Shown: positions 286-6,580 of the stretch, in pieces
Layout of the letters: every line of letters begins with the position of its first letter
Position numbering within the stretch: position 1 is the first letter of the stretch
Assembly: GCF_006345805.1 (NCBI RefSeq)
Contig: NW_021828492.1
Coordinates: 1-8,341, forward strand
Direction: 5' to 3'
Length of the DNA: 8,341 bases
From: Octopus sinensis
Taxonomy: Eukaryota
The notes under the pieces: generated by a model
Told to the model about the DNA's origin: nothing
What the model saw: the letters and a program-made list of their open reading frames with translations, nothing else
Databases searched by the model: none
Program-made: the position numbers and the translations under genes

Positions 286-351
286 CCTTTTCTCTCTCTC
301 TTTCCTTTTTTGCACTTTCTTTTTCGTGTGTAAAACACAATTTTATCGGAC

Positions 352-3300
352 ATGCTCAGAATAGGCAGTATAAATGTACGTGGTTTGGGGTCGCCTTGGA
401 AACAAGGCTACCTGTTAAATGACATCAAATCACTAAATCTGAATATCATAGCCATCAGTGAGACCAGACTCCACAGCTTGCGGGCACTTCAGCACATTTT
501 CGGTACAACATTTCAACATTTATTTTTCTCCGTGTCTACCGAGAATGGGCGGAGGTGGCACCGCGGTGCTTATCCGAAGAGTCTGGATCTCAAAGTAAGA
601 GCAAATTTCCTAGACCCGGAGGGTAGGCTGGTCGTTTTGGATGTCGATGGCAGCAATGAGTGTGCTTTTCGACTGATAGCAGTTTATGCTCCGTCCTTAA
701 CAGGCCGACCAGATTTCTTTCGACGTCTAGAGTCTTTCATGGGAACGTCTCGTCCTTTACTTTTAGTGGGGGATTGGAATGCCACCCTGGACACGCATCT
801 AGACTACGTGGGCAGAGATAGCAATAGAAAGGGGATGCAAATGCCTCAAAGACCTGCTCAGACGTTTCCAACTGTCTGACAGGTACCGACTGGACCACCC
901 GAATGTGCCAATGTGGACAGGAGTAACCGCATCGGGTCGTCCAGATCATACTTAGATAGAGTATTCTGTAGGACAATAGATAAAAATAGTGTAGGTTGTC
1001 CACAATTTCATATAGTCAGTTACACAGATCACAAGTTTGTGACTTGTACACTTTGACTTAGATAAGACACATAGGCAGGGTCCTGGTTACTGGAACTGAA
1101 CGCGTCTTTTACAGCACGACAGGTTACAGGGACCGGATCAGCACATTAGTTAAGAGAGCTTTGACGGGTACCATCATCAACAACAGAATGGTGGTATGCC
1201 CTAAAAAAGCAATTAAAGCAGAATCAGTCAGATACAGTAGAGCCCTAGCATTAGACCGAAATAGAATAGAGGGAGAATTAGTTAAGGTTTTAGAAGAGGC
1301 ACTTAGAACTGGCATCGCGTCCAACGTGCTGGCGGCGAGATTGGCCCTCGACCAACACCTCACGCCAAACACGAGGGATGCGTTGTCAGAGCTAGGATGC
1401 GTGCTCTGAGGAACGAAGGAGTTGGAGCCGCCCAGAGGCCCGAGTGGTGGAGACGCAACGAGGCAACAGAGCCACCATCAAGTCTCTTATAGATGAACAG
1501 GGGCGCGAATTGCTCGAGCCTAAAAGGATGTGGGGGCTTTTCAACAACCACTTCACCCAACTGTTTGGGACAAGTGGTGAGTCAGAACGCAGAGTGGACT
1601 TTAGTGCCTACCTGCATGCCTTGCCACGACTCTCAGCAAGAGAGGTGGAGTCTTGTGAAAGTCTATCACAGCTGCGGACGTACATGATGCGATGGTAGGC
1701 TGCGCGAGAGACAAGTCACCAGGCTTGGATGGTCTGCCCTACGAACTTTATTTTCATATGCCAGACTTGTTTGGAGGCGTCTTGGCAGCTGTCTACTGCA
1801 ACTGGCAGCAGAACGGGAGTATTCCTGATTTTGTAAAGCGAGGAGCAGTGGCACTGATCAAGAAAGACCCAAACAAGGGGGACGTCATAGATAATTTCAG
1901 GCCCATCACTCTGCTCAACGCAGATTTGAAAATTTTGGCCAAGGTGTTAGCCGAGAGGTTGGCGCTTGTCATCAAGAAACTAATCGACAAGGCGCAAACA
2001 TGCGCCGTGCCGGGTAGAAGTATTCATGACAACCTCCATCTGATGCGCTACATCATAGACAGGGTAGTTAAAATCCTGGCATGGGTGGGGCGCTGATCAA
2101 TTTGGATCAATCAAAAGCCTTCGATAGGGTAGACCATCACTACTTGGAGGCTGTCCTTAAAGCGGCTGGTTTCGGTCCAGTTTTCCGCGGTTGGATCGCT
2201 GCCTTATACAGCGGCATCCGCTCAGTAGTTCGCGTAAATGGTCATCTATCCAGACCTTTTAACATCATGCGTTCGGTTCGTCAGGGATGCCCCCTCTCAT
2301 CGCTGCTGTATGTACTGACTCTTGAGCCACTACTCTGGGAAACTGGCGACGCTGAGGGGCATCCCACAAGAGCTGGGATGCGGGAGGAGCGTGTCTGCAT
2401 ACGCGGATGACGTCACCGTCATAGTGTCGAGCTACGAGCACATCGAGTTGGTCGGCGAGACACTAAAAGAATACGAAGCGGTAACGGGAGCAAAAATTAA
2501 CCGGGAAAAGTCAGTGGGCTTGCGGCTCGGCACCTGGAGAAGCAAGCCCATGCCGTCCAACAGCGTCTCCATCGTGGGACGATGGACGGACGGACCGGTT
2601 AAATTGCTCGGGTCTGGTTCGGTCCGGACCTCCAAATGGAGAAGAACTGGGGCGAGATAACGACTAGGGTGGCTACTCTCACCCAGAAATGGCTGAGAGA
2701 AAGCTATCCCTAAAAGGTCGGGCGGAGGTGGCGAACGCGTACATCGCATCCGTCATCGAGTATCGTCTGACCGTCGTGCCTTGTCCCGACCCTACCATCA
2801 CCAAACTGGAACGTATACTCTTCCGCTTCTTGTGGAAGGGAAACGTTCCGATGGTTAGGCGATCCATTTGCTGCCAACACCCGCTAAATGGAGGGCTGGG
2901 CATGCGTGGTTGATGATGCGCAGACATGCGCTGAGACTGCGACATCTCCGGCGCTTCATAGACAAAGGTGAACAGGTGTGGTCGCCTTTTTGTGCGGCGC
3001 GCTTTCCCGCAGCTCGTCCCTCCTTGACGAACTACAGTCATTGATCAAGCAGAGACCGAGGCTAGGCGAATGGCACCGTGAGTGTCGCGTTGCTCTCAAG
3101 CAACTCTGCCGTCCGGGATCGAACTTGTGCGACTCCATCACAACAAAGGCATTCTATAGAGGATTAGTGGAGGGGAGGTGCGACGACGAACTCGGGCAGA
3201 GTCTGGGTGTCGACGAGGAACACCTGACCCGCCTGTTCAGGACAACTTTCGGGCCGGGACCTATGAACAATCACCAAAGATCCCTGGCCTGGCAGTGCTA

Positions 3301-3767
3301 TCGAGAAGCATTACCTGTTCGGGATAAGCTCTACAGACACGGTTCCAGACACACTGGACCGACTTGCCCGAGATGCGGTCAGAGCGACGAAACCGTTCTG
3401 CACGCACTCGTGCATGTCCAACCATTTCCGACCTGTGGGCTTATGCCGAACGGCTGCTGTCACGTGTGGGACGAATCCGCCTATCGCGCCGAGTCTATCG
3501 TGAGAATTGCTCCGCCCCCTTCCCTCAACCGGGAGGCAAGCAGTTTTCATCGTACTGGTGGCCATGGTGAAAGAATGTGTGTGGTGGACTCGAGCGAAAG
3601 GATTAGAGACAAACACTTACCTCTCTGGCCAATCGCTCATCAACTTTTTCAAGTACCACTTGAAAAGGAAGGTGAGAATGGAGAGGGAAGTTTTGTCTCG
3701 CGAAAGATTAAAAAAAAGATGGGTGAATGTTGCAAAGATGGTGCGTGCTAGTACGAAACCATTTTGA
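352..3767 (+). pseudogene. LINE ORF2 polyprotein (endonuclease / reverse transcriptase / zinc knuckle), frameshifted as assembled
   Basis: Motifs in order across frames. APE: SINVRGL, ISETRL, VYAP, VGDWN, SYLDRV, TDH (1024-1032). Linker: GPGYW(K)LN (~1080-1101). RT: KSPGLDGLP, FRPITLLNADLKILAK, LDQSKAFDRV, VRQGCPLS, YADD (2400-2411), GAKINREKS. C-terminal: LSLKGR, GGLG, CPRC-x8-H-x4-C (3365-3417, last Cys one base out of frame). Stop at 3765-3767. Confidence 0.95.
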
Positions 3768-4071
3768 GCATGATCCTGTAGATCGTAAAAAAGAAAGAAG
3801 AGAGCATTTTGATCTCATGTGGTTATTTCCTCCCTGACTGGGGTTCCCGTGGTCTTTTCTGTAGGCTTTTCTTCCCACGGATGAACCCAATCTTATTATA
3901 TCAATGTTTATATCATTATTTCTGTGATACACGATTTCCTTTTTTTTTCCTTTTTTTCCTCCTCTCGATCCCTTTTGATCGCAATCTTACATTTATTTTC
4001 TTTTTTTCCACCCTCGAAAAGAAAAGCTCTGCATTTGTATTTGTCCCCTCTGTATTCAGCCCTGTGTGGCT

Positions 4072-4077
4072 AATAAA
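4072..4077 (+). promoter_or_regulatory. Polyadenylation signal at LINE 3' end
   Basis: AATAAA 7 nt before the (TATC)n tract that ends the element. Confidence 0.65.
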
Positions 4078-4083
4078 AGAAAG

Positions 4084-4274
<191 letters not shown>

Positions 4275-5346: not shown

Positions 5347-5386
5347 ATATGTATATGTATGTATGGTATGTATGTATTAATATATA

Positions 5387-5426
<40 letters not shown>

Positions 5427-5477
5427 TATATAGTATATATTATATATATTATTTACATACATATTTACATACATATA
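5347..5477. repeat. (TATG)n / (TA)n microsatellite
   Basis: Read directly from the sequence. Confidence 0.95.
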
Positions 5478-5637
5478 TTAATAATTATGATTATAACAAG
5501 GGATTGGCTATAAGCCTCTCCACGCGCTAGGAAAATAGGCGCCTAAAGACGCTATTACCACCTTAAAAACTCCGAAAAAATAAAACACGAACTGTAGTCG
5601 GGCAAAAGAAAGATAATGAATTAAACTTTTGGTTAAC

Positions 5638-5701
5638 TGTGTACAAGAACCTGTTTCAAGCTGAAGGTAAAAAATATATATCTTGCGCTCTCATCGGCAA
5701 A
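5638..5701 (-). ncRNA. Variant hammerhead motif in left arm of the inverted repeat
   Basis: The - strand reads tttg-CCGATGA-gagc...gctt-GAAA-caggttcttg-TA-caca. The core has C at position 4, and stems I and III carry mismatches. Confidence 0.6.
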
Positions 5702-5924
5702 CGATATCCCATAGCATATATTTACGAGTACCTACACATACGTATACGATCAGCAATATATATACACACTCGTAGAAATATACAGTAAAGTAGAATTCTC
5801 ATCTGCCTTTTCAACCACTTATAGTATATCAAAACAAACTTTGCAATGAATGTAGTTTTGATCAAGAAGTAAATTTTTCAAATAGTAATTATGATAATAT
5901 TTTCCTATAATTATATTATAATTA

Positions 5925-6521
5925 TTGTTATAATTATGTATATAATTATTAAAATGTTGGTAAAATTTACCTATAAGGTTTTATTTCCTCGCTGACCCCC
6001 TGGTAAAATCATTATTGATTTTTACCCTTTATTATAATTACTATTTGAAAAATTTACTTCTTGATCAAAACTACATTCACTGCAGAGTTTGTTTTGATAT
6101 AATACAAGTGGTTGAAAAGGCAGATGAGAATTCTACTTTACTGTATATTTCTACGAGTGTGTATATATATTGCTGATCGTATACGTATGTGTAGGTACTC
6201 GTAAATATATGCTATGGGATATCGTTTGTCGATGAGAGCGCCAGGTATAATTTTCTTTACCTTAAGCTTGAAACAGGATCTTGTACAAAGTTAACCAAAA
6301 GTTTAATTCATTAACTTTCTTTTGCCCGACTACAGCCCGTGTTTTATTTTTTCGGAGTTTTTAAGGTGGTAATAGCGTCTTTAGGCGTCTATTTTCCCTG
6401 CGCGTGGAGAGGCTTATAGCCAATCCCTTGTTATAATTATGTATATAATTATTAAAATACCTATAAGGGTTTTTTTTCCGCGCTGACCCCTTGGTAAAAT
6501 CATTCATGATTTTTACCCTAT

Positions 6522-6529
<8 letters not shown>
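5925..6529 (+). repeat. Direct repeat 5925-6038 / 6428-6529 defining ~1.2 copies of a 503-bp unit
   Basis: ttgttataattatgtatataattattaaaat...acctataagg...cgctgacccc..ggtaaaatcatt..tgatttttaccc..tattataat occurs twice, with starts 503 bp apart. The first copy has a ~13-bp insertion. Confidence 0.93.
6225..6289 (+). ncRNA. Variant hammerhead motif in right arm of the inverted repeat
   Basis: tttg-TCGATGA-gagc-gcc-aggta-taattttctt-tacct-taa-gctt-GAAA-caggatcttg-TA-caaa. All three stems pair, but the core differs from CTGANGA at two positions. Confidence 0.65.
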
Positions 6530-6574
<45 letters not shown>

Positions 6575-6580
6575 ATATAT
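6530..6580. repeat. (TA)n microsatellite
   Basis: Read directly from the sequence. Confidence 0.97.

What the first reader, a model, noticed from the sequence alone, without database searches (positions are those of the whole stretch)
5925..6529. 1.2 copies of a 503-bp hammerhead-containing unit: possible footprint of a circular or tandem retrozyme RNA
Seen: a ~110-bp terminal direct repeat brackets a non-coding unit with one hammerhead motif in the middle (6225-6289), so the unit is circularly permuted relative to the cleavage site. Known: tandem hammerhead repeats such as newt satellite 2, Schistosoma Sm-alpha and cricket pDo500 self-cleave to monomers, and retrozymes accumulate as circular RNAs. 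Inference: this copy may derive from reverse transcription of a ~490-500-nt circle or multimer for slightly more than one round.
Basis: partly seen in the sequence, partly recalled or inferred. Interest (0 to 1): 0.75.

Follow-up and report, generated by a model that had tools for sequence, protein, structure and literature searches.

The report
Penelope-pasted ribozyme repeat, head-to-head insertion
This is one worn copy of a dispersed, protein-free 500-base repeat that carries a hammerhead ribozyme motif and sits as two back-to-back arms, one ending at each of two fixed points, which likely records a borrowed Penelope-type enzyme copying a longer-than-unit RNA, possibly a circle, onto both sides of one DNA break.

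Summary
The 503-bp-spaced direct repeat and the hammerhead fold are real. Both window cores are mutated (U4C shared; C3U on the right); 21 of 35 family copies keep a canonical core.

In 157 loci, 5' ends vary but 3' ends fall at two sites about 80-95 nt apart. 58 of 63 head-to-head pairs with both ends classed have one of each. A coding Hydra-type Penelope element in the same genome follows the same rule (13 of 13 pairs). No ORF-bearing version of the unit was found.

Repeat copies within a locus are closer than between loci (15 of 16), so the unit is re-copied past its own start. Copying does not stop at the cleavage site (7 of 91). A circle fits, as does uncut longer RNA. No array reaches two units and no RNA evidence was obtainable.

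Verdict: a new family of a known kind (non-autonomous Penelope-like, retrozyme-like). The circle idea is already in print for Penelope elements, and this scan found the same architecture in other families and genomes.

The parts
5347..5478 (.). Left flank, TA-rich microsatellite (likely target site)
   Evidence: TRF; 138 of 223 classed family 3' ends have (TA)3 within 20 nt, against 8.3% of background 20-mers
5475..5897 (-).
   Evidence: about 95% identical to the right arm; shares 12 of the right arm's 17 rare letters
5635..5704 (-). Second type I hammerhead motif, core CCGAUGA (U4C) at 5697-5691, predicted cleavage after GUA at 5644-5642
   Evidence: fold poorly populated in silico (mean pair probability 0.07)
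5898..5924 (.). 27-nt AT-rich spacer between the 5' ends of the two arms
   Evidence: gaps in 41 inverted pairs ran from -18 to 46 nt
5925..6038 (+). First repeat copy: 3' end of a 5'-truncated upstream unit (partial tandem, pLTR-like), holding both end sites E2 (about 5944-5958) and E1 (about 6036-6045)
6001..6027 (+). Conserved hairpin just upstream of the long end, inside the tail; candidate RT start signal (inferred)
   Evidence: fold; a family form of this palindrome has 31 exact hits and 0 control hits
6039..6529 (+). One full non-coding unit ending at the long end (E1)
6222..6291 (+). Type I hammerhead motif: core UCGAUGA 6229-6235 (C3U, U4C), long helix II, GAAA 6270-6273, near-palindromic helix III 6273-6284, GUA 6283-6285
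   Evidence: helix III self-dimer -14.8 kcal/mol
6428..6529 (+). Second repeat copy; its last ~70-85 nt (13-nt deletion here) are the tail that the left arm lacks
6530..6580 (.). Right flank (TA)n

Best explanation
The insertion at 5475-6529 is two back-to-back, 5'-truncated copies of a ~500-520-nt non-coding hammerhead-bearing unit, likely pasted into a TA repeat by the borrowed RT/GIY-YIG protein of a Penelope-like element. Inferred steps: (1) the protein nicks both strands of (TA)n; (2) each nick primes reverse transcription at one of two fixed internal sites about 80-95 nt apart on the RNA, giving one short-ended and one long-ended arm; (3) each cDNA stops at a variable point and the two are joined head-to-head; (4) the right-arm cDNA ran 1.2 units because the template continued past its own start. 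A ligated unit-length circle is my single most likely template (about 45%), an uncut longer-than-unit transcript next (about 40%). The ribozyme likely processed the RNA in the family's active past. This copy's cores are mutated and it is probably inert. Hydra-clade elements are the likeliest donors, but the partner is not identified.
For: Shown: 223 of 265 arms end at one of two sites (117 short, 106 long, 42 elsewhere). There are 86 diverging inverted pairs and 0 converging. 58 of 63 pairs with both ends classed have one short and one long end (p 1.7e-12), and 43 of 46 in the pattern-selected subset. TA flanks at 138 of 223 ends against 8.3% background. A coding element in the same genome (717-aa frame with RWK, DKT, YKDD, CxCx5C, YVG, CxxC, CxH; these are the Hydra motifs of PMC8557442 section 11) has the same anatomy, a 71-nt tail, and one long plus one short end in 13 of 13 opposite-strand pairs. 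Partial tandem, adjacent inverted copy, one-sided tail and (TA)n targets are the published PLE signature (PMC8557442). The tail equals the distance between two RT start sites, with both strands cut and extended in vitro (PMC11167929). Repeat copies within a locus differ by 0.147 against 0.211 between loci (closer in 15 of 16; same-round 0.211 vs cross-round 0.211; 89 shared minority letters vs 27 expected). Only 7 of 91 arms at risk stop within 6280-6295, hazard 0.08, similar to neighbouring bins. The family core is canonical in 21 of 35 copies, with 17 two-sided pair changes against 8.1 in shuffles.
Against: No sequence link to a coding PLE: the unit has no meaningful BLAST match to the Hydra family's loci, and no PLE ORF runs into the unit at any of 157 loci except one single junction (L300) that none of 19 other loci of that PLE family shows. 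The tail is longer than the published 30-40 bp. 42 of 265 arm ends and 5 of 63 classed pairs break the rule; 23 of 86 pairs could not be classed. Against the circle: only 2 of 265 arms span two cleavage sites, so source loci for a monomer are rare or unseen; both window arms share U4C, so the template core was likely already non-canonical; hammerhead cleavage was dispensable for PAc insertion in vitro. Covariation controls are weak: pairs with two-sided change 29 of 500 shuffles, pair types 68 of 500, and related copies inflate the scores. The active fold is 3-25 kcal/mol above the MFE in all 30 copies. Arm ends come from BLAST against the window copy and are blurred by TA flanks. Loci are the best-scoring ones, not a random sample.
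Confidence: 0.75

Rival explanations
1. Same enzyme and double priming, but the template is a linear, uncut, longer-than-unit transcript from a partial-tandem locus (or RT jumps between linear RNAs). The hammerhead is a passenger and no circle is needed.
For: PAc inserts from unprocessed RNA regardless of ribozyme mutations (PMC11167929). The window's template likely carried U4C. Only 2 of 265 arms span two cleavage sites. The longest arm is 1.7 units. 8 of 9 Xenopus retrozyme dimers did not cleave in vitro.
Against: Pure linear inheritance predicts that first-round and second-round repeats form separate lineages. They do not (same-round 0.211 vs cross-round 0.211, within-locus 0.147), so the overlap must be regenerated from one unit at least once per sublineage. 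The core and helices look conserved in two sub-types.
Confidence: 0.4
2. The unit is only the long terminal repeat (pLTR) of an old coding Penelope-like element whose ORF-bearing copies were not sampled.
For: Earlier notes on this genome reached this result for other families (e1-9820579, e1-10336371; unchecked). About 157 of perhaps 700-1000 loci were seen. One junction with a PLE endonuclease end exists (L300).
Against: The unit closes on itself: 26 long-end motifs read straight into the next unit, 17 arms of >=545 nt give periods of 455-523 nt, and no locus shows a recurring ORF upstream or downstream. The L300 junction is absent from 19 other loci of that PLE family.
Confidence: 0.12
3. 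A classical tandem satellite retrozyme (newt satellite 2 or Sm-alpha type) that spreads as arrays, or a local DNA-level duplication plus fold-back.
For: Type I hammerhead with dimer-type helix III, low GC, no ORF.
Against: No arm reaches two units. The 41 exact helix III hits include no same-strand neighbours a unit apart. Fixed paired ends and TA targeting are not predicted by DNA duplication.
Confidence: 0.06

Closest known systems
Metazoan non-LTR retrozymes (Cervera and de la Pena 2020, PMC7229834, passages read; Li, Clavereau and Pollet, bioRxiv 10.64898/2026.07.22.740005, parts 1-3 of 5 read, supplements not seen)
   Same: Non-coding, low-GC unit with one type I hammerhead and a palindromic helix III; proposed to be PLE-derived and PLE-mobilised; proposed circular intermediate.
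   Different: Dispersed partial copies of at most 1.7 units rather than dimers to multimers; unit 500-520 nt (above the 150-450 of the 2020 paper, within the 51-972 of the preprint); head-to-head arms with paired fixed ends; no homologous pLTR found; expression and circles unshown.
Hydra-clade Penelope-like elements (Craig et al. 2021, PMC8557442; passages, section 11 and one supplement search; Hydra-1_Obim is listed for Octopus bimaculoides, 2507 bp, (TA)n, not compared by sequence)
   Same: Partial tandem, adjacent inverted 5'-truncated copy, one-sided tail, hammerhead near the 3' end, (TA)n targets. A coding element with Hydra motifs in this genome shows the identical two-end rule.
   Different: No ORF; no sequence match to the three coding families looked at; tail about 80-95 nt against 71 nt in the local Hydra-type family and 30-40 bp in print.
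PAc (Poseidon of Anolis carolinensis; Frangieh et al. 2024, PMC11167929, parts 1-2 of 4 read)
   Same: Two internal RT start sites that define the tail; both DNA strands nicked and extended at AT-rich targets; hammerhead upstream of the start sites.
   Different: PAc is autonomous, starts in an AC-rich stem loop not homologous to the target, and has a 30-40 nt tail. Here both ends fall in TA-like sequence next to hairpins and could pair with the target (inferred).
PLE hammerheads and the circle hypothesis (Cervera and de la Pena 2014, PMC4209133, parts 1-2 of 4 read)
   Same: Dimer-type hammerheads, opposite-strand pairs 100-700 bp apart, and the proposal that ligated circles template more-than-unit reverse transcription.
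   Different: This motif is larger than the minimal ones: a 4-5 bp helix III and a ~45-nt helix II with an internal loop.

Membership tests
Non-LTR retrozyme | Type I hammerhead with canonical core | tested here: met
   Family level: 21 of 35 copies CUGANGA/GAAA/NUH, fold supported. The two window copies fail (U4C; C3U+U4C); Rfam gave no hit.
Non-LTR retrozyme | No protein-coding capacity, GC below 45% | tested here: met
   Longest stop-free frame 73 codons, GC 33%.
Non-LTR retrozyme | Tandem arrays of two or more units, each with a hammerhead | tested here: not met
   Longest of 265 arms 860 nt; 2 of 265 span two cleavage sites; no same-strand pair among 41 exact helix III hits.
Non-LTR retrozyme | Self-cleavage of the RNA | not testable with these tools
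   Folding only.
Non-LTR retrozyme | Accumulates as unit-length circular RNA | not testable with these tools
   Only assembled contigs of uncertain type were available.
Penelope-like element (autonomous) | ORF with RT and GIY-YIG endonuclease | tested here: not met
   None in the unit; none recurring in register at 157 loci.
Penelope-like element (insertion signature) | Partial tandem forming a pseudo-LTR | tested here: met
   23 of 265 arms >=503 nt; 26 read-throughs of the long end.
Penelope-like element (insertion signature) | Inverted 5'-truncated copy adjacent to the 5' end | tested here: met
   86 diverging pairs and 0 converging pairs within 60 nt, in 157 loci.
Penelope-like element (insertion signature) | Tail present at only one end | tested here: met
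   58 of 63 classed pairs; length about 80-95 nt, longer than the published 30-40 bp.
Hydra-clade PLE partner | Insertion into (TA)n | tested here: met
   138 of 223 ends vs 8.3% background. Shared with Naiad, so not diagnostic for Hydra.
Hydra-clade PLE partner | Sequence homology of the unit to a coding element's pLTR | tested here: not met
   No match to L102-L131 beyond AT-rich snippets and the unit copy beside L102, or to L313-L331 beyond one weak 49-nt hit; the L205 element has its own separate end. Other PLE families were not tested.

The most novel reading that the evidence does not exclude
The family is a true circular RNA parasite. A ~510-nt ribozyme-made circle is loaded with a dimer of Hydra-type Penelope RT/endonuclease and copied from two set start points at once, one from each nicked DNA strand. 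That would explain the one-short-one-long rule, the seamless passage through the cleavage site and the matching repeat copies, and it makes the unit a minimal substrate for solving how Penelope elements integrate.
Probability: 0.3. Interest if true: 0.65.

Novelty: new member of a known kind. Interest (0 to 1): 0.38.

Why it matters
How Penelope-like elements form tandem and inverted ends, and what their hammerheads do, is still open (stated in PMC8557442 and PMC11167929). An ORF-less unit that obeys the same one-short-one-long rule as a coding element in the same genome, and regenerates its overlap from a single unit, turns the 2014 circle hypothesis into a direct in vitro test. The weight is limited: the family is old (median identity between loci 76%), this copy is core-mutated, the parts of the idea are in print, and the scan has met younger families with the same anatomy.

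Tried and rejected
Rfam scan at E<=1: no hammerhead among 29 matches, which were mostly microsatellite-driven miRNA hits.

RNA evidence: no RNA holder listed. Four contig runs were laid; family pieces are present, but contigs of uncertain type show nothing on expression, ends or circles.

Partner search: PLE ORF pieces near unit copies at L034, L205, L081, L039, L283, L029, L061 and L300. L034 and L205 were read and have their own separate ends. L300 is a single junction. The rest are in the wrong orientation or order, or were not followed further. A protein search with the L029 fragment was not run.

Pile-up of 5' ends at the cleavage site: rejected (7 of 91; none of the junctions inspected starts cleanly at 6286). 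A pile-up at 6344-6359 (36 of 151) may be RT stalling at a U-run, a start site or a BLAST edge effect; left open. Apparent breakpoints at 6170-6177 come from an internal TA site hit by later insertions and a small deletion in the window copy.

Target-site duplication: not callable in TA flanks. Pfam and PDB sequence searches did not recognise the 717-aa comparator protein, so its clade rests on published motifs.

Literature: searches listed no description of this family; one search was uninformative. Lunse et al. 2017 on dimeric PLE hammerhead variants is recalled only and not relied on.

Full report
Setting. The window is the whole 8341-nt contig C4963 of a 2.72-Gb animal genome. The host looks octopus-like; this is my inference, and an earlier scan note uses the same wording.

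Observation. The direct repeat is real: 5925-6038 and 6428-6529, 503 bp apart, with six substitutions, a one-base insertion and a 13-nt deletion in the second copy. The insertion is therefore two arms reading away from each other, joined by a 27-nt spacer, between TA microsatellites. No frame exceeds 73 codons and unit GC is 33%.

Ribozyme. Each arm holds a type I hammerhead fold, and Rfam did not detect either. Of 63 right halves found in the first 75 loci, 35 had upstream family context. Of these, 21 have CUGANGA, GAAA and NUH intact (the script misses a few with deletions). I aligned 30 of the 35, leaving out four with deletions in the motif and one second arm nearly identical to its partner. 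The named three-helix structure is 86.7% paired, against 28-47% with slid partners, with 17 two-sided changes against 8.1 in shuffles. The two measures less sensitive to relatedness are not significant (29 and 68 of 500). Helix III is a 12-nt near-palindrome that self-pairs at -14.8 kcal/mol, the dimer type; the active fold lies 3-25 kcal/mol above the MFE in all 30 copies. The window cores are UCGAUGA (right) and CCGAUGA (left). U4C is among the 12 of 17 rare letters that both arms share, so it was likely already in the template, unless the arms were later homogenised. U4C lowers activity in vitro but is tolerated in a viroid (PMC3088659, passage). The extra C3U breaks the C3-G8 Watson-Crick pair; changes at C3 or G8 abolished cleavage in PAc (other substitutions).

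Family anatomy. From 280 fetched stretches I kept 157 distinct loci with 265 arms (L294 and L295 look like a segmental duplicate and are counted twice). First-look candidates numbered 609, 289, 508 and 277. Exact patterns gave 41, 76 and 31 hits with 0 control hits. Two of 30 loci recur among about 70, which suggests very roughly 700-1000 loci (hand estimate). Identity between loci has a median of 76% (68 arms of the 157 loci), and between the two arms of one locus 85% (42 pairs), with 93.5% in the window. The family is old and this copy is among the youngest seen. 5' ends vary. 3' ends fall at a short site (117 arms) or a long site about 80-95 nt further on (106 arms), with 42 elsewhere. There are 86 diverging inverted pairs and no converging pair within 60 nt. 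Of the 63 pairs with both ends classed, 58 have one short and one long end; in the 98 loci holding an exact pattern hit it is 43 of 46. The window follows the rule. TA repeats follow 138 of 223 classed ends, against 8.3% of background.

Comparator. Beside one copy lay a coding element. It belongs to a young, abundant family (34,534 candidates, 114 scored, 91-100% protein identity) with a 717-aa open frame. Pfam and PDB did not recognise it, but it carries RWK, DKT, YKDD, CxCx5C, YVG, CxxC and CxH, the motifs given for Hydra-clade PLEs (PMC8557442 section 11). It has a pLTR hammerhead motif, a 71-nt tail, TA flanks, and one long plus one short end in 13 of 13 opposite-strand pairs among 30 loci. 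Partial tandems, an adjacent inverted copy and a one-sided tail are the published PLE signature. In PAc the tail is the stretch between two internal RT start sites and both DNA strands are nicked and extended. This is the basis for inferring double priming by a PLE enzyme. The unit shares no meaningful sequence with this family, so the comparator shows the mechanism class, not the partner.

Is the unit just a pLTR? It closes on itself. After the long-end motif, 26 of 109 cases read on into the next unit, 64 into TA repeat and 19 into other sequence, and long arms give periods of 455-523 nt. PLE ORF pieces lie near eight loci. The only in-line case, L300, joins the unit at 6337 to another PLE cut inside its own 3' repeat, and none of 19 other loci of that family continues into the unit.

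More than one round? For 16 arms with both rounds of an overlap of 50 nt or more (17 arms >=545 nt; one overlap too short), the two rounds of one locus differ by 0.147 against 0.211 between loci, lower in 15 of 16 (Wilcoxon p 9e-5). Same-round and cross-round distances are equal (p 0.43), and minority letters are shared 89 times against 27 expected. Copying does not halt at the cleavage site: 7 of 91 arms at risk stop in 6280-6295, a hazard of 0.08 among neighbours of 0.02-0.14. A cleaved linear monomer is therefore not the usual template. A ligated circle explains both results. So does uncut RNA with occasional template jumps, and PAc needs no cleavage in vitro. Against the circle, only 2 of 265 arms span two cleavage sites and none reaches two units, so no plausible intact source locus was seen; this locus cannot be one. 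Sequencing-run data could not address expression.

Comparison. It works like a non-autonomous PLE derivative, which is what animal non-LTR retrozymes are proposed to be (bioRxiv 10.64898/2026.07.22.740005; its supplements were not visible). It fails the tandem-array criterion of that class (PMC7229834), so I file it as retrozyme-like and PLE-mobilised, not as a classical retrozyme. More-than-unit copying from ligated circles was proposed for PLEs in 2014 (PMC4209133). Searches listed no account of this family. The scan's notes describe the same two-end, head-to-head anatomy in other families of this and other genomes (unchecked); a search by sequence found no look-alike of this unit.

Verdict. 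Real feature, new family of a known kind. PLE-type double priming about 0.75; circular template about 0.45, conditional on that; interest 0.38.

Noticed in passing
window 334-4085 (+): Frameshifted non-LTR retrotransposon with an endonuclease-family N-terminus, RVT_1 pieces and zf-RVT, ending at a (TATC)n array; L1/Tx1-like by recall. Unrelated to the finding.
   Followed up: partly
L125 (G000:C5:61733963-61738027) and L102-L131: Young, very abundant Hydra-type PLE family with intact 717-aa frames. Its pLTR hammerhead core reads CCGAAGA (U4C) in nearly all copies displayed, so U4C is fixed in an evidently successful element.
   Followed up: partly
L300:1520-2640 (-): Single chimera: the endonuclease end and 3' repeat of a second PLE family (2095 candidates, 78-86% identity), cut inside its hammerhead-like motif and joined in line to the unit at 6337. 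Could be a template switch pointing to the partner, or a chance insertion.
   Followed up: partly
L205:5744-7845 (-): Near full-length ORF of a third PLE family (37-48% identical to the L125 protein) with its own minimal hammerhead motif about 1 kb downstream.
   Followed up: no
window 6156-6172 equivalent in L026, L033, L034: An internal TA stretch of the unit expands and receives later insertions of other elements.
   Followed up: partly
window 6344-6359 and 6248-6263 equivalents: 5' truncation points cluster at two U-rich tracts (hazard 0.24 and 0.14), in short arms and in arms one unit longer; RT stalling, a transcription start or an alignment artefact.
   Followed up: partly
alignment A1: Two ribozyme sub-types (core CUGAUGA and CUGAAGA) with matched changes in helix I and helix II.
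   Followed up: partly
L280:1540-1685 and 3171-3316; L294 and L295: Short head-to-head insertions repeated by larger segmental duplications.
   Followed up: no
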